Shown here in pieces: positions 11,665-64,000 of a stretch of 64,000 nucleotides of DNA. The notes under the pieces were generated by a model, which made no database searches, was not told the origin of the DNA, and was given only the letters and a program-made list of their open reading frames with translations. This stretch comes from Vermamoeba vermiformis (Eukaryota). Where the stretch lies: contig JBEWZL010000282.1 of NCBI GenBank assembly GCA_045837725.1, positions 434,001 through 498,000 of the forward strand, written 5' to 3'. The position numbers and the translations under genes are program-made. The stretch's first letter is position 1. Each line of letters opens with the position of its first letter.

Positions 11665-14178
11665 ATGCCAACAGGTCTTGCCTTAAAGAACGCCGTCCTT
11701 TGGCAGAGGCCAACTCTCGAGTCAGTAATCAACCTCGAAACAAACGCGTCACCTTTCATTTCCCTCCCAGTACAAAAATTATACCCGCAAGTTAGTGCAA
11801 AATATTATGAAGCAATAGGCGTATTTACCGGGAATTGCACCGCTTCCTCTACCTCGGAGCTCTAAGTTTGCTATTTTTAGGATCGGATCCGGTTGTTCAA
11901 GTGCCCGGAAAACTACGAAAAATCTTAAGCGAATCACCAGACCAATTGCGGAATACGTTATTCAAATGCCTTGATATTATCGAACAGAGAAGCCAAGATA
12001 ATAAGCTTACACCAATCTTCGTCAATTTTCAGATCGGAACGACCGACGACTTCTTATTTTATTTTTGGACCAAGATCTGCAAAGACGGCGGAGAATCAGA
12101 GGAGCAACAAAATATCCTTCTCAAGCATTGGAGTCTACTTAATCCATGCCATATTGATCCTCAGAGTCCAGTTCTACCCGAGCAACCTTCTATTTTGGTA
12201 CTCCGTGCCTATGATAGTGTCGCTATTGACGAGGTCATCGCCGCAATGGGCAACACGAGGCACGTTCTGATGTTAGTTAGCAATCTCCAGGGGAGATTGG
12301 AACTTAACGGCTGGATCAATGGTGACAACAAAGATCGAGTGTACTTCATTAATTTCGCTCTCACTCACTTCGATTTTGAAGACAGAATGTAAGAGCAATG
12401 CGTATTATGTTGGACTGGCTTCTAATCCGATGTTTACCAACAGGTACTTGGACACCAGGGGACATGATGTTCCTCGGTGTCTGGCACAGACCGGCGGAAT
12501 TCCGCTAGCGATGCGCCAGTTGATGTACAAATACCCACTGGATACAATAGACGGCCTATTATATCAACACAGCTCCCACACAGTTCGTAACATTCTGCGC
12601 CAACTGTTTATAATGTACTGCAAGTGCTACACTGTCACCGCGGACTGGCAAGTCGATGGCATCTCTTATCTCGATATTGCGTTGACGGTGGGGCTGTTGT
12701 TGATCGATACAAAGACCAAACTGTTAGCCACGCCCGATGTCTCTTTTGCTTCCTTCGACAAAGATCAGAACGAGATCGCAACTCAGAAGTCATATCACAT
12801 TGTTTGGCCTGACCTCTTAAAGGCTAGGTACATGGCACTCAATCCAAGCGTTAAACGTCTCTATCCTGGTCCTGGTCTTACAGCGCCCGAACCGATGGAA
12901 TACTTCATATTGCAGAACTTGACGAATACGTTCATCGACTGCGAGATCACCTACGGAAGCAGATTCAATTTCTTTAGAACGTCTTACATCAAGCAGTGCT
13001 CCTTCTCCTCAGCACTGCCATTGATGCTTCCCAAGATCTTGGGTCCGAAAGAAAGCAAAAAGAATGTCGTATGGTCACGCCAAACTCCGCTTTCCGAAAT
13101 AGCAGCGATGATGCCTGATGACTTCTGGGAGCTCATTCAAACCGTTCCTGCTGGTCGAATGTTGACTTTCAGACCTCAATCGTGCAGCCCTGACATGATG
13201 GCTGTATTCCCAATGCCCCACGACAAGGGCACCATTTACAGAATACTCGCAGTTCAAGTTAAATCTGGCACAGAATCACACAATGACTTGGACTTGATTG
13301 ACGAGATAGCCAAGTGTCAATTGTTTGATGTTTCGAAGGACTTTGGCTTCCGACATATCGAATTCAAAGACCACCTGTTTCCATGTTCAGTCACCTTCGT
13401 TTTTGCTGCCATGAACTCATCTTCGCTGGTGACCTATTTGAAAGCTAATAACTTCTATCTCTCTAAAGAGGCAAGTCAATCAGCAGGCTACATTCGATGC
13501 ACGCACGAGTCGTGGAAAGTGCTGCCACCCAATGTAGAAGTCATCGTGCTGCTACAAGCAGGGCTCGTGCAACTCTTGGGGTGCGAGGAGAACTACGACT
13601 TTGTGAAAAACTACAAGCCCCACGAAGTTGCAGAAAGTGAAGGTAACCAGTAATATTCATTCAAACACGAAACTAAACCTGCTTATTCTAGCGGCTACGT
13701 TTTTGGATGAGATGAGTGACAACAGTCTTGAAACGCTCGCTGAGTCCCGTAAGTAACATTATTGCTTCACTAATGGGCTAACACAATCCCAGTTCGAAAG
13801 GACGTGCCACCGGGACTCGATGCGAATATGTTGCATGCAGGTCTGCGTGCGGCAGTGATAGAAGATATCAGCGAAAGTGACATGAACACTTTCTTCGAAA
13901 GGGTGGTGAAGACGTATAAAAAATTAAAGAGAGGCAACAAACCTATGCACAACTCAGAATCAATCGACTCAAACGAAAGTGAAACGACTGAAATTCCCTC
14001 GAAGAAACTACCCTCATCGAACAAACGCAAAGTTGAGGCCATAGTATCAGAAGAGGAAGAACAGCGTGCAAACAAGACAAGATGCCTGGAGTCCGAATCA
14101 ACGAGTGCAAATTCAGAGAACGACCCCAAGAAGTCCGATGCATTGGTGGAATTTGCAGATCTATTCGCGAAAGACTGA
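11665..14178 (+). CDS. Crinkler/RHS-like protein: degenerate NTPase-like region plus PD-(D/E)xK-like nuclease domain; 5' exon structure unresolved
   Basis: ORFs 11835 and 12319 are joined in phase by an intron at ~12390-12443. Motifs TGGIP and SCSPD...ILAVQVK (PD..QxK). Further introns link to the 13804-14178 exon. Confidence 0.5.
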
Positions 14179-14525
14179 AGTTGAGCTCGGCAAGATTTGC
14201 GTGGTCGTATTGTATTTAGTTGTAGAATTTGTTTTGTTTCGTTAGATTTAAATGATTATTTTTCTCGAGAAAGTCCTGTAATAATTCGTGCCGACAAATG
14301 CCGTTCAACGACTCTGGCCATTTACCTCAGGAACTACGGTTGGGGTAGGGCTCCCTACTGGGTGTCTGGTTTTTACGCACACGACGGGTCTTTCCAAGAA
14401 GAGCAATGATGGCTGTAGGTGTTTTCAAACAAGAGTGTCAACCTCAATCGATGTTAAAGCCTTGCACTGACACACCAAACATATCTATTTACATTGACTT
14501 ATTTACATTGTTTGCTGTCGCTAGT

Positions 14526-17500
14526 TCAATCATTCGTCAAGGCATTCCAAAAGTCCTCAAGATCATCGCCGTTAATACTACCACTTTCAAGTTGGTCCTC
14601 ATCGTCTCCTTCATTATTGTTGTTATCGTTCGGTTTATTCTCTTCGTTCTCGAGAGGCTCACGATCACTCCTATCTTCTTCGTCCTCAATAACAACTGTT
14701 TGTTTTTGCTCGTGCATTTTAACGTCGTTGTCATTGCTTGCATCCTCAATAATGATCTCAGGTCTATTAACATGTGACACCATCACCACGTCATCGTCAT
14801 CGTCAATAATGTTATTGTTGCTGCTCCTCTCGTTCGATGAAGGCTCATCTAACACTGCCTCCACATCACTGTCCGAGCTCTTCTCCTCGCCAAACAACTC
14901 GCTCTCGTTCAGCGCACTTTGCATCAAAATATCATCGTCGCTGTCACTGTCTTCGACTACTTGCATGCTGTTGTTCAACGAGTCCATGCTCTCGCGCAGA
15001 TCTGCTGCAGATGAGGGCTCGATGTAAATGTGAGTCCAGCCCTTGCGCTTTGCATTTTTTGACGCCCAACTAAATCAATATTAGACATGCACACCTAGTA
15101 GAATGAACAACACTTACACTTCCAGCATTCGCCCTTTGCCAGTGGTCGAGTTGAAGTTCGCCTCAGGCAACAAGGTCTCGATCATGTTGTACACGTACTC
15201 CATTGGCTTCTCACACCTCATGCCCTCAACGTCGTCTTTAGTCTCCAGCGAGGGGTATTCAACGACATCGGGGTTGCGTTGATGCCGAAGTTCCATATCT
15301 CCATGGCCCTGATAGCCGTGTTAGACCCGTCACACGTGACATTCTCCGTAGTCGACTTACCTTGCGGAACAGAAGCAAAGACAGCTTTGACTTGTTGAAG
15401 TACTCGCTCTCTTCCTCCATCATCTTGTTGTTCACGTGCTTCTTCATCCACATCAAGTTTTCAACGTACAAGAACTTCCATTTTTTCGCCAGTCGTATGA
15501 TCTGATGCAACAGTTACTATCAAGTGCTTCTTTGGACTCTTGTTAAACTTACATCGCTAATGAACTCCTTCTCGATCCACACGAACAGAAATCCTTTTGG
15601 AATCAGCGCGTTGCTGACCTTGATCCAAGTCTAGAATACGCGTCAGTTTGGACTAAATGAGGACCTTAAGCGCATCACTTACTTGCACATCATCAATGGT
15701 GACATAGCCCTTGCCGTACGTTTTGCCATCGTTCTCCTTTGGTCGCAATGGCGGGTCAAGTAACAAGGCAAAAAATGGTCCAGCAGACTCAACTTCATCC
15801 CACGCGATCTTCGGCAGTTTCGATGACGCGTAGTTGTAGCCTGTCACTTTGACACCCGACATGTCGCCCTCACTAACAACGTTAAAATGATGAAGTGGGT
15901 GATATAAACGACTTACCCTAAGTATGGCGTGATCATCCGAGGCCACTCTAAGCCCATTGGAGGCTTGGCAAGTCGGACCATGTCAGGCGGAGGTATTTTT
16001 CCGCTCTCCATCAAGTGCTGCAGCGTGTTCGTGCTGACACTCGATACGCCCGAGAAAAATCGTGACAAATCTTGTTGTTTCAATGATGACGGCGATACAA
16101 CTGGCGAACGTGTCTTGGTCGAGGCCACAGCTGCCCGCACAATAGCTCTATCCGCATGTATTGGCTTTCTGTTTGAGAGTCAGCTTAAAAATACTATGAA
16201 CTCGCGCAACGTACTTTGCTTTAGAAGGCTGTGTCGGGGTAGTTTTCTTTGACAGGGCGAAGAATCGATCGAGCGTTGGTGTGTTGCCGACAGGTGACAC
16301 AATCTTTCGCTTCTTGTTGCCTTGCTCGACAGGACTACGATTCATGTTGTTATCGGGTGTTAACTCGTCCTCGGCCTTTCTCTTCTTCGACCCACCGCTG
16401 CTTGGACTCACTTCAGACTCGCTCTTTTCGTTGTGACTGGACAAGTCCAAATTGTGGTACTCGCAAATCCATTGATTGATTTTGTTCTCTTCTTCTTTCG
16501 TCTCTTTAGTTTTCCACGAGCTCATTAAGCTGAGCTCATTCTATTCGAGGTTAAAAGTCTGCAAACCACCTGAACGTCACGATGCGTACCTCGGGTAACA
16601 AGACATTGTAAGACTTGGTCGGCTCTTCTACTTGGACCTCTTCGTCTTGATCTTTGTCGCTTTTAGGTACCTTGACGCTGTTGTCAACAATGACACCTTG
16701 CTTCAACAAACTCCTGAAGTAACTCGCACACTGATAGCCAACCCGATGAGGAATCGCCTTGCTAAAAACACCCCAATAGTTGCCGATCTGCGGAACTCGT
16801 TAAAATCGCGAGAAAATGGCCGAATGTTTTACGTACCGGCCAGTCATTGATTTTGAATTCAATGTACCGCTTCATCCACTGAGTATGCTCCTCAACAGTG
16901 AACTTTCCATTGTGCTGCAATACACCAAGGTCCGTAAATCTATAGTAATACGTGTTGGGATTCGTGTGGCGCAACTTCCAGGCTGTAATTTTGGCCTTTG
17001 ACCAGTCTTTCACTTGTTCCTCGGTGAAATTGTCTTCGCCGGATGATTTGTTTCCTTTCGCCAAAGCGCTTTTGTACTCTTCAATCGACCACTGTATAAA
17101 CTTTTCTCTGTCCTCTTCAGTGGCAATAGGAAACTCTCGCTGTACACGCGTTAATCATCTCACTTTAAACTAACTTTCTAACATGACGTACTTCCTTCGA
17201 GCGGATAGTCGGAACTGCGGCACCCGAAGAAGCTTTCGCCTCTGTTAAGCTGCCGCTGGAAGGCGTTTCTTTTTGTTTGATACGCTCACTACGAGCCCGA
17301 GACAAATCAGCGATGGAGAGCATGGGCGTTTGAGACGCCGTGTTCTTTAAAGCCTCTTTTGGTCGTGCTTTTGTTTCTTTGACTTCTTTCTTCTTCACTG
17401 GACTGTCAACTTCAAACGACGAATCAGAGCCAATGTTTAGCGGCACATCTTTCGAACCAAGATGTATCGTAGGTTTAGAGGGACCTGACTTTGCTTTTGC

Positions 17501-18901
17501 CTCCTGGGTTTGCTTAGCTTCGTCCTTATTTGGTGGTGTCTTCTTGGTCTCGGTCGCTGCTTCGAGTTTGCGCTTCACTTCTTTTGTTGCCTCGGCTTTG
17601 TTGACATCGTCCTTTTTAGCACTTTTATCCGCGGATTTGGCTGTAGACATTAACGACAACTTTGTGCTCTGAATGTAATTAGCAATGGCAATGAAATGAG
17701 ACGCGAGTCTTACCAATTTTGTGACAGGCTGTGATGTTGGCATAAAATCATCGTCACTATTGAGCGTTATAGCATTACTCTTATTGCCAAATAAGGACAG
17801 TGGCCGTGGCTTTTCCTCGTTTGTGGCCTTTGGCTTGGGTGGTTCTTGGGTCGGCTTCGTCGGTGAATCGAATGCGACCTGTAACAATCTTCTGTTGGCG
17901 ACGACACGTGGTGCTGACGACGGAATTGTCTGCTCCTTGTTGTTGTCCTTCGTAGCATCATCCGAAGGCTTACTCGTAGCCTCGCTGTCTTTACTTTGAG
18001 CCTCCTTTCTTTCCGTCGGCTCAGCTTCTTGTTTGGTTTTTGCTTTGTCCGTCGCTTTGCTTGGCTTCGATTGCCATGGCACATCTTCATCCGCAACTGT
18101 ATCTATCGGCTTCGTAGATTGTTTTGCTTGCGAAGTCGGTTGGGAACTTTGTTTAGGCTTCGCAGCTTGTTGACTACTTGAACCGGACGTGAAGCTAACT
18201 TGTGATTTGATTGGAGAATGCTTTTGCTTTGGACTTCGTAAAGGCGACGAGTCTATTTTTTCCACGCTATCCTGAGCCTTGTTTGAGGCACGAGAAGTGT
18301 TCGTTGGGGTGTCAAAGTCATCCTCACTGTCACTTTCCAAAATCTTCGCTTTCACCGTATCATCAAACTCGTCAAATGAATCAGAAGACATTGATTCGAT
18401 TTTACGCATTTTGATTGGTGACGAGGGCGGTGTTGACAGGAGTGGACGTGAGGGCTGAGACTTGGTTGGTGAACTAGACCACGAGCTATTTTGTGTTGAC
18501 ACTTCGTTCGGTTTTTCTTTAGTTATATTATTTGACTTTTCAATTTTTTGTTTCGTTTTGGAGGGCGTTGAGCTCTTTGATCCAGATGCAGGCGAATTAT
18601 TTTCGTTTACAATTTTCTTTAATTGAGGCTTCGCTGATTTCGATGAGGAAAATGAGAATTCGTAATCATTTGCTGTATGGTTGACTAAATCAATTTCGTC
18701 ATTTTCGAAATCCAAATTAAAAATCTTCTTCGGTGTTGTTGCGTGTCTGCTGCCACTATTACTCGCTGAATTATTGTTCTGTGTTGATTTTAAATTTGAA
18801 TTTGTTTTATTTGCCAATAAAGAAGAGAAAATGCTTGGTTTTGGCGAAGAGTTGATCCCAGATGGATTCGAACTCAGTGACAAACTAAGCCTTTTGCTCA
18901 T
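14526..18901 (-). CDS. Large protein: S/K/P-rich disordered N-terminus + Myb/SANT-like domain + MT-A70 family (AMT6/7, MTA9-like) methyltransferase domain + acidic tail
   Basis: All exons join in phase through canonical GT-AG introns. Myb-like: NPNTYYYRF..GKFTVEEH..WGVFSKAIPHRVGYQCASYFR. MT-A70: LLDPPL, GFLFVWIEK, YVENLMW, KSKLSLLLFRK, MELRHQRNPDVV, EKPMEYVYNMIETLLP, MLEVWA..RKGW. Confidence 0.85.
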
Positions 18902-19123
18902 TAATAATGTTTTTAATTCTACATAGGTTGTGCTCTTTCTGCGAGATTCGAATCGAAATTGTGCAATAAATTCGCAGAACGAGGTTTGAATTTTGCGCGG
19001 GCTTGTCGCGCGATTAAATACAACTTAGTGCACGAGAGTAGTACGAAGGCCAGGTACCAATTTATTTCGTAAACCAAAAAAATTGGGATGTCAGTTCGGT
19101 GTGCAAGCGAATTATCGTACAAA

Positions 19124-42582: not shown

Positions 42583-44439
42583 TTAGCATCGAGAGAAAAA
42601 TTCTTCGGCGTCATAAGGCACGAGGAACGGGAAATTTTGAATTCTAACGTCAGGGAACGCGTTCTTGAGTAAGTACTTCATGCCAGTCGCTGACTTGATC
42701 CAACGAATTTCGTTCCTAGAAAACATGCCAATTTCATCATTTTCGTACCAGAATCGATCAGCATTGCGAGAACGCTTGAACTGATCGGCTATTATCTCGG
42801 CAGTAGTCGGACCAACTGCCCCGATGTACTTGTCCTCTGCCAACAGCCCTACGTACGCGTCAACTTTTTCCACGAACTGATAGACATCGCGCAGCTTGGA
42901 GGCTAGAGTGGAGTTGGAGGTGATGAGCGAGAAGCAGGCCAAAGTGTCTGGCTCAGTGGCGTTGAGATCACGACGGGAGCAGTGAGGATGCGCGGTGATG
43001 TCTTTGACGCCGAATGTTCTGTAAGCAGCACGAACTCGGACATAAGGCGCCAAGCCGTTCAATCTGCCGCGCATAATGTTGACTGCAATCACGTCGAATG
43101 GCACGCGAATAATGTTGCGCATGGAGTCGTCGAACAAAATGTCAACTTCATTCGACTTTTCAAACGAGAGGCCGTGCACGACGTACGCAGGATTTTCAAC
43201 CCAAGCCATGAGATCGACACCACTCGTCGTACCACCGTTTTGTCCAGCTGCACTGCGTTGATTGCGGAATGGTTGGTCTGGATAAGGTGCATTGTTGCAT
43301 CGGTCTTTGAAGGGCAGAATGTTGATCAGCGCACTGTGGCCGAATCTAAATGCAGCAGTGGAGAACAACACATTGGTGGTCGGATCTTCGTCTTCATTGT
43401 AGCCGCGGTACGGACCAATACGACGATAGTGCACGCCAAGCACGGTGGGCAAGTACTCATCGTAGACCACGTGCTGGTAGATTGCTGTGATCCACGCACG
43501 CGCTGTTTGGAAGATCTGCTCGTCGGACCAGTGCGGATATTGTGCACGCAGCTCGGCGGCTTTGAGATTGTGGTTGCGCAAGAACATGCCGTGAATGGTG
43601 ATCAGACCCAAGTTCTCGTTCACGCGTGGATCACCAGCAGAAAAACACTCGTTGTCAGGCTGATTGAGATCGACTACTCTGCTAGTGTTGACGCCAGTGT
43701 CAGACACGAGTGGCAGCCAGTTGAGGAAGGTGGATGTGAGCACTGGTTGACCGGTGATAGTCGTGTTTACTGCGATGTAGTCGCGGGTCTTGAGCTTGCC
43801 ATCAGCGAATGTACGAAGGGCATCAGAGTGTTCTTTGCTGAGGCCGTAGACTTGACTCAGATCCAGGTAAGAAGTAGCGTCGTTGGTCACTTGAAAAACG
43901 CCATTGACGACTTGGCCTAATGTTCTGAGCGTGCGGATGCGATATTTGCGCGAAGGTACTGGCACTGTTGGAGGCAAAGGATCGTTGGGCTCAATGATTG
44001 GAATAATTACGGCATCCGTGTCTGAATCTGGCAAAGAAAAAACGGCATCCGACGTTTCATTACGTTTGTTGATGCCCATATCGTGGGCAATCCATTGGCC
44101 GAAGTAAGTCCACAAAAGGCTGAGTCCAATGTGGTTTTGACCTACAGTTGTAGTTCCACCATTCATGAGTGCATTTGACAGGACACGTTCGTTAGGCAGT
44201 TGGGGACTGCGGATCGGAGTGACGCCATCAGATTCATAATGATAGCCTTCGGGACCTCGGCGAAACAATGAATCAACTTGTCCTAGTGTTGGATTCGCGA
44301 GGTTGTTGCATGATCCATCAAAAGAGCGCCAAATTGAGGTGCAAGCCGGATCTTCATTAATTGATAGCACCAAAACAGCATTAATTAACAAAATAATAGC
44401 ACATAGGCCGATTTTATTCAGCCTTAAAAGCGACAACAT
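42583..44439 (-). CDS. Secreted heme peroxidase (peroxidase-cyclooxygenase superfamily), intronless
   Basis: RSFDGSCNNL, GQWIAHD (distal His), AGDPRVNEN, AAFRFGHS (proximal His), IMRGR, DRFWYEN; hydrophobic signal peptide. ATG at 44439. Confidence 0.93.
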   Translation of the reverse strand: MLSLLRLNKIGLCAIILLINAVLVLSINEDPACTSIWRSFDGSCNNLANPTLGQVDSLFRRGPEGYHYESDGVTPIRSPQLPNERVLSNALMNGGTTTVGQNHIGLSLLWTYFGQWIAHDMGINKRNETSDAVFSLPDSDTDAVIIPIIEPNDPLPPTVPVPSRKYRIRTLRTLGQVVNGVFQVTNDATSYLDLSQVYGLSKEHSDALRTFADGKLKTRDYIAVNTTITGQPVLTSTFLNWLPLVSDTGVNTSRVVDLNQPDNECFSAGDPRVNENLGLITIHGMFLRNHNLKAAELRAQYPHWSDEQIFQTARAWITAIYQHVVYDEYLPTVLGVHYRRIGPYRGYNEDEDPTTNVLFSTAAFRFGHSALINILPFKDRCNNAPYPDQPFRNQRSAAGQNGGTTSGVDLMAWVENPAYVVHGLSFEKSNEVDILFDDSMRNIIRVPFDVIAVNIMRGRLNGLAPYVRVRAAYRTFGVKDITAHPHCSRRDLNATEPDTLACFSLITSNSTLASKLRDVYQFVEKVDAYVGLLAEDKYIGAVGPTTAEIIADQFKRSRNADRFWYENDEIGMFSRNEIRWIKSATGMKYLLKNAFPDVRIQNFPFLVPYDAEEFFSRC

Positions 44440-44770
44440 TGTAAGTGCTTGTCGATCCAAATGGATTTGATGAAAGAATTGGGTGGCGTTGCAAAAACCC
44501 TTTTATTTGTTTCTAACCACAAGATTTTGTTTGTGGGACAGCGGAATAACTGTTGTACCGTTCACTGAATTAGAGGTTGTTTAGTGCTGTCAGATCTTGA
44601 TAGCACACAACCGAAGAAGAGTATACTTTAAGCACACAATTGTTGCCATATTACCGTACCAACGGCATAATTCAGCAGAACGTAAAGTATTGCAAGTATT
44701 TTGACGCCTGTCACAGATCCGTCAAAAAACTAAACTTGAATTTAAACATGCCCACCCAAAACCCACATTT

Positions 44771-59500: not shown

Positions 59501-61940
59501 TCGCTGCCAGCTGGAACTGTGATCTCTTTGTAGGGAAGGACGTTGCTGAAGGAACACGGGGTCACTAGAACTCGGGTGTTTGGAGGAAGCGTCACTGATG
59601 AGCCTGGAGCTGGTATTTGATTGTTTGCTGCAAAAAAGACAAACATTAGTAAGTTGCATCAACGACAAATGGCTAGAAGCTCTTACACCAAGTTGAGGGG
59701 TCTTCCCACTTCTTGAGTCCATCTTGAAGATGAGGACAGTCTGTGCGAGGATTGGGATCGACACCATTCGGCATCAAAGGAATGTACGCGGCTCTGAACA
59801 CTTCATTCGAGTACATCGTTGGCTTGGTGAAGGGCTGCTCGACCAGCTCGAAAGTGATGTCTTTGTAGAAGAACATTCCTGCCCCACCGAAGCTCCCTTG
59901 AATGGCAAAGAAAGCACGTGACGCGAGATTAGGAGGAGAGAACGTGTAAGTGTAACTGGCCCATTCCGTGGTGATGCCATTGGGTGCAAGGTTGTCTGAC
60001 GCAACGACGAAGGACGAACCAGAAGGAGCTGTAGTTTGTGTGTAGTTGCCTGGAGGATACTTGCGGCTCTCAGTGTCGGTCTGTGTGGCGTCAAAGATCT
60101 TAAACACACGAACGGTAACATCGGCAGTGGTGTTGACATTTTCATTCTTTGGATCTTGTTTGATTGAGAAGCTAATCTTGTACGTGCGATCTGGATGAAG
60201 AGAGAACGGCAGCAAATACCCAGAATTCAATAGAAGCGCGAATGGGTTCGCTGAGTACTTGGGCTTGTACAATGTGATGCCGTTGTCCGTGCGATTGACT
60301 TTTAAAGTGACCGCACCCATTGTAATGCCAATGAATGCTGTCTCGTCGTCGTACTTCTGCACGTAGTTTGGATACGATGATTGAGGATCGAATGATGCCA
60401 TTGGTGGGGTGAAATCAACAGTTGCAAAGTCAGTGCAAGTGGCCGTCGGAACATCAAAACGAACAGTCACTGTAGTCTTGGCCTTGAGTGTCATTGAGCC
60501 TGAAGTGCCATCGCCGCACACTCCGCTCTTCGTTTGAGCTGCGTCTGATGTGACTGAGCAGTTGGATGGAAGTTCGACTGAATCTCCGAATGAGATGTCA
60601 AACGTTCCTGAAAGCCCATAGCCCTATCATATAGTTGTTAATAAAGACTTACATTCTATTAGCGCTCATGTGCTTGAAGACTTACGTCAACAAAAGACAA
60701 GAACACGCTGCTTTGAGAGCTTGTGACACTTGTCTGAATCTCACTGCCGACACTTATCTTCTCCAACACAACAGAGGACGATGTGGACACAGACAACGAT
60801 GAGCCTACACTCAACAAGCTCATGCCCACAACACCACCGTTGTCTGACTTGATGTTGAGTGACAGATCCCCAGCTGAAAGAAGACCAGAGGTCGATGTGA
60901 TGCTTCCTTCGTCCAGTTCGACTAGCACCACGTTGAAGTGATAGCCAGCAGGATAGCTTAAGATGACCTGAGGGCATTGTTAGTACGGCCACAATGTCAT
61001 ATGCAAGCGAGACATACCTCCAGTTCAAGATTATCGGATTGTGCAAAGATAACGGAGATAAGTCCTAATAAACAGTTATTATTATACTAGGTCTTAGTAT
61101 GCCTTCAAAGTTACTTACCGAAGATCGCAGCAACCAATAGACCAGTTTTGCGTCGAGAACCGAAAGTTGACAGAAGCAAGGCTGTAGGGACAAGGCTCGC
61201 GAGAATAAAAGAGATTTGGTTCGAATGACCTCTGCTGATACCGCTAGAGGATACCTGAATATCAATTGTATGTTAGAAACAATTAGGGTGTGATTTAAAT
61301 AGCCTATTTACAACGTAGCGAGTGTGAACCAAACGAAGAAAAAAATTGATCAAATCCGAATCTGGTTCGGAAAGAAAAAACAAGCTCTGAGCGACATTAA
61401 TGCTTATATATATGTTATAAATGCATCTTTGGCTTGTAATCATAGCGCAAAAGTTTACGGAGAAGCGAGTGTGAGCACCACACAGATTTTCTGTCACAAA
61501 TTCGAACTCGAAATTACAAAATCGAAATCAAACACCTCGTAAATATATTTGTAATACTCTCCAATTACGCATTCTATTAATTAAAGGAAAACAAACCGGC
61601 TGGGTTCTTACCTTCAAGTAGATCTCGCCGTTGGAGCCGTACGACACTATTTCATCCAACGATACGCGTGTATTTGAGTTAATAGTTAATTTAGGTGAAC
61701 TAACGTCTGCCTGTTGCGTCTTGAAATTAGCCTGTAGAAAAAACAAAATTAATTACCGCATCCACGTTACTCAATCAACGAGAATAAATCAATCTGCATC
61801 GTTATAATACTAACCTTGATGGAAGAAAATAAACGGAGGTTATTATCCACGTTGATGTCGCCGACGAAGTCTGCCGCGACAACAAGCGAACAGCACAGAG
61901 CAACGAGCACTCCGAATAGTACTCTGTTTAGCTGCGCCAT
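56571..61940 (-). CDS. G8-domain / parallel beta-helix secreted protein (dictyostelid comF-like, fibrocystin/TMEM2-related)
   Basis: KWEDPSTW (G8 start), AEYQTEVGLLSRRI, FGGHLM, MGQFNMLGRYP|IHFH, YFRCITVHGTH, GHCYYLEDG, DSAAAGFYISN. Exons join in phase up to the ATG at 61940. Confidence 0.85.
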
Positions 61941-62619: not shown

Positions 62620-64000
62620 TGTAATGATGTACTCATACAATAAACGTGAGAACGTCAGCGTGTCAGGTGCGTGGTTAAGCCACGGTAAATCCCGACTTAA
62701 CGGAAACCTGGCGGGTATAAAAACCCTGCCAATCTCTTTCCGTCCTGACCTTCTTCACACCCACTACGAGCACTACATTACATTGGTGCGCCTCGCCGGT
62801 GTTAGAAGTTTTATTTATTTACATAACGTTTTAAATACATCGCCTGATCTTCGCATCTACAATGAGCGAACTGACCTCCCCAGCGAGAAACACTCGCTCA
62901 CGCTCCGCTCAAGGTGGTAACACTCAACAAGAACCGCCCACACGTCAACAGGGCAAGAGTAAACGCAAGACACCAGTTTCCGAGCCAGATCCCCATGCTA
63001 CTGACAGCGGATCAACTGCAAACGGATCGTCCTCAGTGGCAACACCACCGTCAACGCCAACACGACAAGGAGACCCAAGCAACACTGCCCAAGGGAACCA
63101 AACGCGTGTCGAGGAAACGGCCACAATTCAGAATATTCCTAATTTGGAAAATTCCGCTGGTTCGCAGACCGCTGCGGGAGTGAGTTCACCTCCTCCCCAA
63201 GGGTCTCAAACTTCGTCTGGCACGTCTGTGGGGTCTTCTACTGATTCTGTTAACGTTACTAGTGTTCGTAATACTGGTGGCAGTAGCGTTAACCGATCAG
63301 CGGAACAATCAACCTCGGATCGGCAAGCTGGAACGACCCAAGGTGTTGTGATTCCCCAGTACCCCACGCCACCTAGTCATAACAATAGTCAAAACGACGA
63401 TATGAACAAGGCTTACGACCGCGCGCGTAGATCCGTTACCGAGAGATTTTCACGAGAGACAGCAGATCCTGAAGCGTGGCTCAATTTTATGAGATGGACT
63501 GCGTCTACTAACAAACTCGATCATGAGGCGCGGAAAAAGCTCATCTGGGAGTGTCTCTCCGAGAGCATCCAAAAGATCTACTCCGTCGCTCATGAGGTCC
63601 GTAAAAGCTCTTACGATAACATAGTCGAATGGTTCGAAGAGTCTTTCGTTGTTAAACGTAGTACTGTCGAAATCATGCGCAATATCGAAGAGTTGACTTG
63701 GGATCACGAGCACGTGCCCTTTTCGAGATTTTTGATTGACTTCGTTTCTGCCATGGGCCCGTTAGCGAATAATGACTTTCGTCAACGTATGTGGTTACTG
63801 CAAGGCAAACTGCCCGGTTACTTGGGTCAGATGTGCCAAGCGGAATTCTCACGATTTACGTGTTTTGCTGACATGACGTCTTGGGTAAATTCGCATGAAA
63901 ACTTCAAGTTATATGCAGCCCTGACGCCATTGAAGCCCGCTAACAACAATAATCAACCTGTTAATGCTGTGAGCGACACGTTGCAAAACGTGCAGACTGG
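62620..64000 (+). mobile_element. LTR retrotransposon (probably Ty3/gypsy-like), 5' portion: 163-bp LTR, PBS and gag
   Basis: LTR 62620-62782 bounded by TGTAATG...CATTACA, with internal AATAAA and TATAAAA. PBS TGGTGCGCCTCGCCGG at 62784-62799. Confidence 0.85.
62862..64000 (+). CDS. gag: Gag-like ORF, intronless, open to the window end (absent from the ORF track)
   Basis: MSELTSPARNTRS... is a S/T/P-rich N-terminus, followed by a capsid-like helical region (RFSRETADPEAWLNFM, YDNIVEWFEESF, LLQGKLPGYL). No stop codon before 64000. Confidence 0.75.
   Translation, partial: MSELTSPARNTRSRSAQGGNTQQEPPTRQQGKSKRKTPVSEPDPHATDSGSTANGSSSVATPPSTPTRQGDPSNTAQGNQTRVEETATIQNIPNLENSAGSQTAAGVSSPPPQGSQTSSGTSVGSSTDSVNVTSVRNTGGSSVNRSAEQSTSDRQAGTTQGVVIPQYPTPPSHNNSQNDDMNKAYDRARRSVTERFSRETADPEAWLNFMRWTASTNKLDHEARKKLIWECLSESIQKIYSVAHEVRKSSYDNIVEWFEESFVVKRSTVEIMRNIEELTWDHEHVPFSRFLIDFVSAMGPLANNDFRQRMWLLQGKLPGYLGQMCQAEFSRFTCFADMTSWVNSHENFKLYAALTPLKPANNNNQPVNAVSDTLQNVQT

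What the first reader, a model, noticed from the sequence alone, without database searches (positions are those of the whole stretch)
14526..18901. One gene fuses a Myb/SANT-like DNA-binding domain to an AMT6/7 (MTA9)-type MT-A70 domain: candidate self-targeting 6mA DNA-methyltransferase subunit
Seen: ORF-track fragments 17165-18901, 16762-17064, 16148-16525, 15913-16140, 15653-15946, 15259-15510, 15114-15296 and 14526-14987 join in phase via canonical GT-AG introns into one protein. Its order is a long S/K/P-rich disordered region, a Myb-like domain (~16690-17000; YYYRF..GKFT.EEH..WGVFSKAIPHRVGYQC), an NLS-rich linker, an MT-A70 domain and an acidic tail. The catalytic-position motif is DPPL (15746-15757) rather than DPPW, and the domain carries the ELRHQR..YVY.MIETLLP signature. 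Established: in ciliates, symmetric ApT 6mA is written by the MTA1c complex (catalytic MTA1/AMT1, non-catalytic MTA9/AMT6/7, and separate HTH proteins p1/p2). Inference: this is an AMT6/7-like scaffold carrying its own DNA- or chromatin-binding module. That would imply a 6mA system in this protist with a subunit architecture I do not recognise; the Myb-like domain does not look like ciliate p1/p2. Keeping D-P-P leaves open some residual SAM binding or catalysis.
Basis: partly seen in the sequence, partly recalled or inferred. Interest (0 to 1): 0.85.

Follow-up and report, generated by a model that had tools for sequence, protein, structure and literature searches.

The report
Myb-like domain fused to AMT6/7 methyltransferase subunit
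This is one real eukaryotic gene that joins a Myb/SANT-like module to the probably non-catalytic partner subunit (AMT6/7, also called MTA9) of the enzyme that writes DNA adenine methylation, but the same fusion already sits uncharacterised in public databases for many amoebae and early-diverging fungi.

Summary
On the minus strand, 18901..14526, eleven exons join in frame through ten GT-AG introns of 44-52 nt into a protein of 1295 aa. Spliced contigs and RNA reads from close relatives show seven of the ten junctions directly. An eighth shows as loose read ends, and a ninth is bridged by collinear homology.

The C-terminal domain is MT-A70 of the AMT6/7 (MTA9) type. It carries ELRHQR and MIETLLP, and family profiles hit solved MTA9/AMT7 chains at about 1e-38, against about 1e-18 for MTA1/AMT1. 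The motif at 15757..15746 is DPPL.

The N-terminal module of about 165 aa is conserved. A homologue folds with high confidence, and its core is a Myb/SANT-type three-helix unit (best Z 6.0). Sequence support for "Myb" is indirect.

The architecture is not peculiar to this genome. At least 54 database proteins carry both domains. They come from Acanthamoeba, Balamuthia, Endostelium, Mortierellomycotina, Mucorales, Umbelopsis and Dimargaritales. Of these, 50 keep DPPW, so the window's DPPL is the exception.

I found no paper describing the fusion, but figures and supplements were not visible. AMT1, p1 and 6mA itself could not be checked because no genome is held. The finding is real but not unique, and of moderate interest.

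The parts
14526..18901 (-). Whole coding region: 11 exons, 10 introns, 1295 aa (1310 aa if the 45-nt intron is retained)
   Evidence: In-frame splice model; junction evidence from relatives' RNA
17714..18901 (-). Exon 1a: start codon and S/K/P-rich, low-complexity N-terminal region (aa 1-396)
   Evidence: Contigs of X1 cover about 17520-18646. The start codon itself is inferred.
17669..17713 (-).
   Evidence: Joint 17668/17714 with CT..AC ends in one X1 contig, depth 4; GTAAGA donor
17192..17668 (-). Exon 1b (aa 397-555), basic low-complexity region
   Evidence: Its join to exon 2 (intron 17191..17140) is in silico only.
16837..17139 (-). Exon 2 (aa 556-656): first half of the conserved N-module
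   Evidence: Six-frame HMM hit to the N-module profile, E 4.8e-35; alignments A3 and A4
16590..16787 (-). Exon 3 (aa 657-722): second and third helices of the Myb-like core
   Evidence: HMM E 4.8e-23; weak c-Myb match, E 0.0068; joints on both sides seen
16451..17040 (-). Conserved N-module (aa 589-752, introns included in the span)
   Evidence: 209.5 bits to profile A3; 16 of 20 near-invariant positions kept
16686..16908 (-). Myb/SANT-like three-helix core (aa 633-690), split by the intron 16836..16788
   Evidence: A homologue's model matches Myb and SANT structures, Z up to 6.0; PF00249 passes in related modules
16215..16540 (-). Exon 4: end of the N-module, then a basic linker with two KKRK motifs (16387..16376, 16315..16304)
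   Evidence: joints 16540/16590 and 16168/16215
15917..16168 (-). Exon 5: linker, then the start of the family-conserved region before the MT-A70 core
   Evidence: Family alignments start at aa 888-892 inside this exon
15015..15987 (-). MT-A70 domain of AMT6/7 (MTA9) type (aa 892-1133, introns included in the span)
   Evidence: 210.5 bits to profile A2; A2 and A5 hit MTA9/AMT7 far better than MTA1
15746..15757 (-). DPPL in the place of the catalytic DPPW motif
   Evidence: Read; column survey
15276..15293 (-). ELRHQR loop
   Evidence: Aligns to residues 376-381 of Tetrahymena MTA9 chain 7yi8_A. E376, R378 and H379 are reported as p1 contacts (PMC12485025, section 9).
14526..15014 (-). Acidic C-terminal tail (net charge -43) and stop codon
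   Evidence: RNA reads of relatives cover 14783 upward

Best explanation
A single gene encodes a long form of the AMT6/7 (MTA9) subunit of the eukaryotic AMT1-type DNA N6-adenine methyltransferase complex.

Shown:
- One spliced reading frame joins, in order, a disordered basic N-terminus, a conserved ~165-aa module with a Myb/SANT-type three-helix core, a basic linker with two KKRK motifs, an MT-A70 domain of MTA9 type, and an acidic tail.
- The same two-domain architecture is conserved in Amoebozoa and early-diverging fungi.

Inferred:
- Like ciliate MTA9/AMT7, the protein pairs with a catalytic AMT1. Because the aromatic residue of DPPW is replaced (DPPL), it probably does not transfer methyl groups itself.
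- Its ELRH loop, which in Tetrahymena MTA9 touches the DNA-clamping N-terminal region of p1, is kept.
- The N-module adds a DNA or nucleosome contact in cis, tethering or orienting the writer on chromatin.
For: One gene:
- Searches give the in-frame model.
- One search shows seven junctions directly and one more as loose ends.
- Searches give collinear homology across exons 5-10.
- Fused relatives align from model residue ~580 through ~1130. One of them is an Endostelium zonatum ORF bearing a Trinity-style transcript name in EukProt.

MTA9 type:
- Exon 9 alone hits 5 PDB sequences, all MTA9/AMT7-type, at E 3e-6 to 5e-5.
- Profile A2 scores MTA9/AMT7 at 3e-38 to 1e-33, MTA1/AMT1 at 6e-19 to 7e-17, METTL3 at ~7e-10 and METTL14 at ~5e-7 or worse.
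- The fused-family profile A5 gives the same order.
- PF05063 passes its cutoff in 5 of 5 fused homologues tested.

N-module:
- It scores 209.5 bits to A3 and keeps 16 of 20 near-invariant positions.
- The AlphaFold2 model of a homologue has pLDDT of 90 or more over 146 residues.
- The best structural matches are Myb/SANT units: SNAPC4 Z 6.0 (rmsd 1.5 A over 53 residues), RADIALIS 5.9, CoREST 5.4, c-Myb R2 4.9.
- PF00249 passes in 3 related modules, over the same stretch.
- The two nearest Atlas clusters (0.91 and 0.90) carry PF00249 in 77% and 72% of members.

Established roles of MTA9 and p1 come from PMC12485025 sections 7 and 9 and from passages of PMC12695648.
Against: - No AMT1, p1 or 6mA data exist for this organism. 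No genome is held, and only this gene in the window matches either profile.
- Pfam finds nothing in any single exon.
- Among 7 N-module sequences, only 1 reaches even a sub-threshold Myb score (19.8 bits against a cutoff of 24.4).
- N-module profiles hit no Myb chain significantly in the PDB (WER E 0.61).
- Foldseek gave no match at E 0.001 or better. Z of about 6 is within the range the tool calls common for small helical units.
- Exon 8 alone weakly prefers MTA1-type chains (E 0.036-0.25) over MTA9 (E 1.3-1.4). None of these is significant.
- 50 of 54 fused relatives keep an intact DPPW, so 'non-catalytic' may not hold for the subfamily. It rests here on one residue.
- The trees do not place the window's MT-A70 domain with the other fused proteins, and their backbone is unresolved.
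- The exon 1 to exon 2 join has no read support.
Confidence: 0.65

Rival explanations
1. The protein is itself an active DNA adenine methyltransferase. The N-module would aim it at its targets, with no need for AMT1 as the catalyst.
For: D-P-P is kept. 50 of 54 fused relatives have the full DPPW, whereas ciliate MTA9 has unrelated residues in that place.
Against: The window has L where the motif [DNSH]PP[YFW] needs an aromatic residue (motif as quoted in PMC7145601). The whole family groups with MTA9/AMT7, which binds neither SAM nor SAH in solved structures (PMC12485025 section 7).
Confidence: 0.1
2. The subunit role is the same, but the N-module is a SANT-type protein or histone-tail binder, or a docking site for other subunits, rather than a DNA-binding Myb.
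For: - CoREST SANT2 (Z 5.4), MiDAC and ZZZ3 units score about as well as DNA-binding Myb repeats.
- The whole module is slightly acidic (net -3, pI 6.0), although its core is basic.
- Relatives of the module sit in U-box and BAH proteins. The precomputed Pfam listing also shows PHD (P0225) and HMG-box (P0268) partners.
Against: The three-helix core is basic (net +4, pI 9.5). Most of the top structural matches are DNA-binding Myb repeats.
Confidence: 0.25
3. These are two adjacent genes (a Myb protein and an MT-A70 protein) wrongly joined.
For: The junction 15916..15873 and the join of exon 1 to exon 2 are not seen in reads. Some Mucorales records hold the N-module alone, at 275-312 aa.
Against: - Exon 5 is spliced to exon 4 in a relative's contig, and it already contains the family-conserved region that continues into exon 6.
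- 54 database proteins have both domains.
- The two stand-alone Mucorales records inspected end inside the linker, as truncated models would.
Confidence: 0.04
4. It is an RNA m6A partner of METTL14 type.
For: It shares the MT-A70 fold and has a degenerate catalytic motif.
Against: METTL14 chains score about 1e-6 against about 1e-38 for MTA9. At E 0.01 or better, the fused-family profile lists no METTL14 chain at all.
Confidence: 0.02

Closest known systems
Tetrahymena AMT7 / MTA9 (PDB 7yi8_A, 9o6k_A, 9u92_B) and the related chain 8xyl_B
   Same: Same MT-A70 subfamily. They share ELRHQR and the MIETLLP block, and they are the top PDB matches for both family profiles. The three residues reported to contact p1 are kept.
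   Different: The ciliate proteins have no D-P-P. Their N-terminal region is largely disordered, with two short helices (PMC12485025 section 7). They carry a large insertion that splits the alignment in two, and they have no Myb-like module. The window's protein is about three times longer.
Acanthamoeba protein P0205 (1011 aa; its 90% cluster holds 'MT-A70 protein' ELR12528.1 of A. castellanii, 440 aa) and Balamuthia mandrillaris 'Myb-like domain-containing protein' P0211 (1203 aa)
   Same: Same order of N-module, linker and MT-A70. P0205 is 50% identical in the N-module and 36% in the MT-A70 part. In P0211 the two domains sit at almost the same residue numbers as in the window's protein.
   Different: Both keep DPPW. 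Overall identity is only about 31-36%. The window's MT-A70 domain does not group with them in either tree.
Long Mta9-like proteins of early-diverging fungi (Mortierellomycotina, Mucorales, Umbelopsis, Calcarisporiella, Bifiguratus, Dimargaritales)
   Same: Same two-domain architecture and the same conserved blocks in both domains. They lie in a lineage where Mta1, Mta9 and P1 are shown to interact and to be essential (PMC12019607, passages).
   Different: They form their own clade, have DPPW, are 27-34% identical overall, and lack the ~550-aa N-terminal low-complexity region.
Ciliate p1/p2 (AMTP1/2) and fungal P1
   Same: These are small helical DNA-binding units of Myb or homeobox type that work with the AMT1-MTA9 pair. 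The p1 N-terminal region is a seven-helix domain of about 150 aa that clamps DNA (PMC12485025 section 9).
   Different: They are separate polypeptides. No sequence match to the solved p1/p2 chains appeared in three profile searches, and none appeared in the structural lists. That is inconclusive, not a proof of difference.
Myb + U-box and Myb + BAH proteins (for example P0219, P0221, P0257)
   Same: They share the first ~110-125 residues of the N-module at E of about 1e-35 to 1e-40, and they pass Pfam PF00249 over that stretch.
   Different: They have no MT-A70 domain, and they lack the last ~30 residues of the module, which only the MT-A70 fusions have.

Membership tests
AMT6/7 (MTA9) clade of MT-A70 | Has an MT-A70 domain (PF05063) | tested here: met
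   The spliced model scores 210.5 bits to family profile A2 (script). PF05063 passes its cutoff in 5 of 5 fused homologues. Single exons alone give no Pfam hit. The spliced protein could not be given to Pfam.
AMT6/7 (MTA9) clade of MT-A70 | Closer to MTA9/AMT7 than to AMT1, METTL3, METTL14 or METTL4 | tested here: met
   Exon 9: 5 of 5 PDB hits are MTA9/AMT7-type. Profiles A2 and A5 score MTA9 at about 1e-38 to 1e-29, MTA1 at about 1e-19 to 1e-15, and METTL3/14 much weaker. Exon 8 alone is inconclusive and leans to MTA1. No labelled phylogeny was possible, and no METTL4 chain appeared in these lists.
AMT6/7 (MTA9) clade of MT-A70 | Catalytic motif [DNSH]PP[YFW] is lost | tested here: met
   DPPL at 15757..15746: the aromatic residue is replaced, and D-P-P is kept. 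The motif definition is from PMC7145601.
AMT6/7 (MTA9) clade of MT-A70 | Forms a heterodimer with AMT1 and co-occurs with AMT1 and p1/p2 | not testable with these tools
   No genome is held for the window. No second MT-A70 gene lies in the 64 kb.
AMT6/7 (MTA9) clade of MT-A70 | Does not bind SAM | not tested
   Would need a structure or a binding assay. The spliced protein could not be folded here.
Myb/SANT (PF00249-type three-helix domain) | Passes the Pfam Myb_DNA-binding model | tested here: inconclusive
   Window exons: no hit, because the domain is split by an intron. N-modules of fused homologues: 1 of 7 matches, at 19.8 bits below the 24.4 cutoff. Related modules in P0219, P0221 and P0257 pass at 26.4, 25.7 and 24.5 bits over the homologous stretch.
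Myb/SANT (PF00249-type three-helix domain) | Three-helix fold like solved Myb/SANT units | tested here: met
   Tested on homologue P0207, not on the window's own protein. pLDDT is 90 or more for 146 residues. Top matches are SNAPC4, RADIALIS, CoREST SANT, Reb1 and c-Myb, Z 4.9-6.0. The Z values are modest, and Foldseek gave nothing at E 0.001 or better.
Myb/SANT (PF00249-type three-helix domain) | Binds DNA (Myb) or histone tails (SANT) | not testable with these tools
   Only charge could be computed: core net +4, whole module net -3.
p1/p2 (AMTP1/2) DNA-binding subunits of MTA1c | Sequence or fold likeness to solved ciliate p1/p2 | tested here: inconclusive
   No p1/p2 chain appeared in profile searches or in the rows shown by the fold searches. 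Lists are capped, and divergent relatives can be missed.
METTL14 | Best match among MT-A70 subfamilies | tested here: not met
   METTL14 chains score about 5e-7 to 1e-5 with A2 and are absent at E 0.01 or better with A5, far below MTA9.

The most novel reading that the evidence does not exclude
The Myb/SANT-AMT6/7 fusion may be an old, possibly Amorphea-wide, form of the 6mA writer's partner subunit. In this form the DNA or chromatin contact that ciliates delegate to separate p1/p2 proteins is built into the partner. Most members keep DPPW and so might still be catalytically competent. The window's protein would then be a lineage in which that second active site has decayed to DPPL. Such a built-in reader could be the missing link between the AMT1 complex and H3K4me3-marked nucleosome linkers.
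Probability: 0.25. Interest if true: 0.65.

Novelty: new variant of a known kind. Interest (0 to 1): 0.42.

Why it matters
How the AMT1 complex finds its sites, the ApT positions in linkers just downstream of active promoters, is an open question. The 2025 survey of 6mA across eukaryotes defines MT-A70 domain architectures with two Pfam models only, MT-A70 and ZZ (legend of Extended Data Fig. 1d, PMC12695648). It also says the link to H3K4me3 'would require intermediate proteins' (same call).

A conserved Myb/SANT-like module on the AMT6/7 partner in Amoebozoa and early-diverging fungi is a concrete, testable candidate for part of that targeting. Its host groups include Acanthamoeba and Mucorales, where 6mA can be studied experimentally.

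The intact DPPW in most fused members also questions the blanket view that AMT6/7 proteins are inactive. For this particular window the gain is smaller. It is one more member of that group. Its DPPL is unique among the 51 fused proteins with a readable motif, and it has an unusually long disordered N-terminus.

Tried and rejected
- Pfam on each of the ten exon translations found no family.
- The window's own genome is not held, so AMT1, p1/p2 and paralogues could not be sought.
- A word-based protein search with exon 2, longer proteins only, found none.
- The sequencing-run search listed no RNA holder. Only runs of relatives were available.
- Exon 6 (the DPPL exon) against the PDB gave only a chance hit, E 2.1. 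Exon 2 against the PDB gave nothing meaningful.
- The first mixed alignment of exons with homologues (A1) misplaced the short exons and was dropped.
- The profile of the wide alignment A4 against the PDB was too diluted to be useful.
- No p1/p2 chain appeared in any sequence or fold list. This is an absence only.
- Complex prediction of the N-module against the MT-A70 part of P0205 gave 'no answer', score 0.00, and the controls were not run. It is no evidence either way.
- The idea that the stand-alone 275-312 aa Mucorales proteins are fungal P1 was rejected. The two I inspected (P0203, P0171) end inside the linker of the fused form, and they lack asparagines at positions 106 and 110 of their own numbering. 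It is not clear whose numbering the paper uses.
- Trees could not say whether the fusion arose once. The backbone is unresolved. The AU test does not reject one clade of all 22 N-module-bearing rows, p = 0.223.
- Earlier findings of this scan: two look-ups returned nothing.
- Beh et al. 2019 (PMC6570567) is not held.


Full report

Candidate donors of the form GTA[AC]G lie at the end of each fragment, each followed 44-52 nt later by an AG. Joining them from the first ATG of the long ORF (18901) gives an open frame of 1310 codons ending at the TGA at 14528-14526. For the fourth intron, two acceptors keep the frame open and one does not.

No RNA run of the organism itself was listed. Laying three RNA-seq runs and one set of contigs from close relatives (90-97% identical) on 14300-19100 gave direct junction evidence:
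- Contigs of X1 skip exactly 16788-16836, 16541-16589, 16169-16214, 15631-15682 and 15502-15552, each with CT..AC ends on the plus strand.
- RNA reads of X9, X10 and X11 skip 15070-15117 (7, 5 and 32 reads).
- Loose read ends at 15360 and 16837 carry the sequence of the next exon (26 of 30 and 27 of 30 letters, compared by eye).
- A joint 15495/15551 with four letters in between (5 and 6 reads) is most simply the 15502-15552 intron seen through mismatches. That is an inference.

Two junctions have no read support. One is 17191..17140, which ties the long low-complexity first exon to the rest. The other is 15916..15873. Homology bridges the second: BLASTP alignments of the spliced model to family members begin at residue 888-892, inside exon 5, and run without a break to about 1129. 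Exon 5 is in turn spliced to exon 4 in a relative's contig. The final model has 11 exons and 1295 aa.

DPPL lies at 15757..15746 and ELRHQR at 15293..15276. There are two KKRK motifs in the linker, the tail has net charge -43, and the first 555 residues are 71% S/T/P/K/E/D/Q/N.

**2. The C-terminal domain**

I therefore worked through relatives.

Exon 9 alone finds five PDB sequences, all of them MTA9, AMT7 or the related chain 8xyl_B, at E 3e-6 to 5e-5. The alignment runs through ELRHQR and the MIETLLP block. The same exon drew six proteins from the large protein collection, four of them with PF05063, including an Ichthyophonus hoferi protein from EukProt.

A profile of four of these (A2) was searched against the PDB:

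| PDB family | E-value |
|---|---|
| MTA9/AMT7 | 2.8e-38 to 1e-33 |
| MTA1/AMT1 | 6e-19 to 7e-17 |
| METTL3 | about 7e-10 and weaker |
| METTL14 | about 5e-7 to 1e-5 |

The spliced model scores 210.5 bits against A2 in a script. A profile of twelve fused proteins (A5) gives the same order.

One result points the other way. Exon 8 alone scores slightly better with MTA1-type chains (E 0.036-0.25) than with MTA9 (E 1.3-1.4). Neither is significant, and ciliate MTA9 has a large insertion there.

I could not build a tree with labelled AMT1 or METTL references, because none could be fetched. Subfamily assignment therefore rests on these rankings and on the shared motifs.

**3. The catalytic motif**

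In ciliate MTA9, the place of DPPW is occupied by unrelated residues. I aligned 202 stored family members to A2 and read the four motif columns:

| Group | n | Motif counts |
|---|---|---|
| With the N-module | 54 | DPPW 50, DPSW 1, gap 3 |
| Without it | 148 | DPPL 31, DPPW 24, gap 20, NPPW 11, the rest scattered |

The window's protein is therefore the only N-module-bearing member with DPPL. It shares that variant with many short-type proteins, including the Ichthyophonus one. Loss of the aromatic residue argues against catalysis (motif definition from PMC7145601). That a single variant recurs so often suggests D-P-P is kept for a reason. Neither point was tested.

**4. The N-terminal module**

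An exhaustive profile search with A2 found 2030 proteins at E 0.001 or better, and the best 150 were stored. Five of them align with the model from about residue 580 right through the MT-A70 domain. They come from Calcarisporiella, Dimargaris, Dispira, Podila and Cunninghamella (names). A MAFFT alignment shows a conserved block of about 155 residues upstream of the MT-A70 domain in all six sequences.

A profile of that block plus the window's exons 2 and 3 (A3) found 246 longer proteins, of which 120 were listed. In a script, 54 stored database proteins carry both the N-module and the MT-A70 domain in that order. Names place them in two groups:
- Early-diverging fungi: many Mortierellomycotina; Mucorales (Cunninghamella, Thamnidium, Rhizopus stolonifer, Apophysomyces, Absidia); Umbelopsis; Bifiguratus; and Dimargaritales (including Tieghemiomyces).
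- Amoebozoa: Balamuthia mandrillaris; Endostelium zonatum (an ORF with a Trinity-style transcript name in EukProt); and an Acanthamoeba protein, P0205. The 90% cluster of P0205 holds the truncated 440-aa 'MT-A70 protein' ELR12528.1 of A. castellanii.

The window's best overall match is P0205, at 50% identity in the N-module and 36% in the MT-A70 part. The window keeps 16 of the 20 near-invariant positions of the module.

Two of the Mucorales records that hold the module alone (275-312 aa) were inspected. Both end inside what is linker in the fused form, so they look like truncated gene models.

**5. Is the module Myb-like?**

Sequence evidence is indirect:
- Only 1 of 7 A3 members gives even a sub-threshold PF00249 score.
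- The A3 profile reaches WER only at E 0.61.
- Exon 3 alone reaches c-Myb at E 0.0068.
- However, the first ~110-125 residues of the module recur at E of about 1e-35 to 1e-40 in proteins without MT-A70. These carry U-box or BAH domains, or PHD or HMG-box domains in the precomputed listing.
- Three of these pass the Pfam Myb model over exactly the homologous stretch: 26.4, 25.7 and 24.5 bits against a cutoff of 24.4.
- UniRef already names several fused proteins 'Myb-like domain-containing protein'.

Structural evidence comes from a homologue. An AlphaFold2 model of the Luapelamoeba protein P0207, built with a 66-row alignment, is confident over residues 28-180 (146 residues at pLDDT 90 or more). 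It shows three short helices, a three-helix unit, a beta hairpin and a long final helix.
- Foldseek finds nothing at E 0.001 or better, but its top rows are CDC5L, Trichomonas Myb2/3 and WER.
- VIA-align against 48,161 representative chains puts the SNAPC4 Myb repeat first (Z 6.0, rmsd 1.5 A over 53 residues). RADIALIS (5.9), CoREST SANT2 (5.4), Reb1 (5.1) and c-Myb R2 (4.9) follow. The second look at Foldseek's own list agrees.
- These Z values are modest, and the tool warns that such values are common for helical units.
- The two nearest Atlas clusters (scores 0.91 and 0.90) carry PF00249 in 77% and 72% of their members.

Together this supports a Myb/SANT-type core inside a larger conserved module. 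It does not decide between DNA binding and protein or histone binding. The core is basic (net +4) and the whole module slightly acidic (net -3).

**6. How it most likely works**

Established: in ciliates the writer is AMT1/MTA1 paired with non-catalytic AMT7/MTA9. DNA lies on the dimer surface and is clamped by the N-terminal helical domain of p1. SAM binds MTA1 only (PMC12485025, abstract and sections 7 and 9).

That paper reports that the p1 clamp touches MTA9 at E376, R378 and H379. In the alignment these are the E, R and H of ELRHQR, which the window's protein keeps. This assumes the paper numbers MTA9 as chain 7yi8_A does.

Inferred: the window's protein is the AMT1 partner. It offers the same loop to a DNA clamp and adds its own Myb/SANT-like module and basic linker as a further DNA or nucleosome contact. 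Whether the module replaces or supplements a separate P1 cannot be said, and a fold of the two parts together gave no answer (see Tried and rejected).

AMT6/7 co-occurs with AMT1 and p1/p2 across eukaryotes (PMC12695648, passages). In Rhizopus, Mta1, Mta9 and P1 interact and are essential, and Mta9 is duplicated in Mucoromycota (PMC12019607, passages). The long fused form may be one of those paralogues, but I could not check the accessions.

**7. Evolution**

A FastTree of 138 domain rows places the fungal fused proteins in one group and Acanthamoeba with Balamuthia in another. The window falls beside a 310-aa fragment, two short-type rows and Endostelium.

An IQ-TREE quick tree of 71 rows leaves the backbone unresolved (support 35) and puts the window among short-type rows. 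For that tree I kept all 22 fused rows and 4 chosen truncated rows. I then drew 45 of the 74 short-type rows at random, which left 38 other truncated rows out.

An AU test does not reject a single clade of all 22 N-module-bearing rows (p = 0.223). One old fusion with losses, or several fusions, both remain possible.

**8. Novelty**

The fusion is common in public sequence collections, but I found no description of it.
- Five full-text searches returned no paper that describes a Myb or SANT domain on AMT6/7 or MTA9.
- I read matching passages (find mode) in PMC12019607, PMC12695648, PMC4738411, PMC7145601, PMC13297926 and PMC11258239, plus the abstract and sections 7 and 9 of PMC12485025.
- PMC4738411 mentions only ZZ and CCCH fusions for the MT-A70 clade.
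- The PMC12695648 legend names only the MT-A70 and ZZ Pfam models.
- Figures and supplements were not visible, and Beh et al. 2019 is not held, so a prior depiction cannot be excluded.

I rate the finding a new variant of a known kind at the level of the protein family. This window is one member of it, distinguished by DPPL and a very long disordered N-terminus.

**9. Verdict**

The claim of an unrecognised, organism-specific architecture is not supported. Interest is moderate.

Noticed in passing
window 17669-17713 (-): An in-frame 45-nt GT-AG intron lies inside the long first ORF. It is spliced out in one contig of a relative. Retaining it would also keep the frame open, so both forms may exist.
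   Followed up: partly
window 42583-44502 (-): An uninterrupted 639-aa ORF matches Pfam An_peroxidase (animal haem peroxidase) at E 6.5e-109 over nearly the full profile. It is unusual here for having no intron over 1.9 kb. A 337-aa ORF lies antisense to it (42907-43920 +).
   Followed up: no
window 12277-13653 (+), 59673-60623 (-), 62835-63998 (+): Three long ORFs (458, 316 and 388 aa, the last running off the window) have no Pfam family at E 0.001 or better.
   Followed up: no
related proteins P0219, P0239, P0255, P0257 (not in the window): The first ~115 residues of the N-module recur in a widespread family of ~500-600-aa proteins that end in a U-box. Members include a Gigaspora and a Piromyces protein. 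A different cluster of ~495-aa proteins with the module (P0258) holds an Ostreococcus member. One 593-aa form was seen on up to 186 metagenome contigs. Their function is unknown to me.
   Followed up: partly
related proteins P0013 and P0098 (not in the window): Two AMT6/7-like proteins have other fusions: a C-terminal poly(ADP-ribose) glycohydrolase (P0013, 1043 aa) and, in a Durusdinium record, an N-terminal WD40/WDR26 part (P0098, 1215 aa). Either could be a gene-model merger.
   Followed up: no
related proteins P0203, P0171 and five other Mucorales records: These N-module-only proteins of 275-312 aa come from Mucorales species whose relatives have the fused gene. The two inspected stop inside the linker, which suggests split or truncated gene models in those annotations.
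   Followed up: partly
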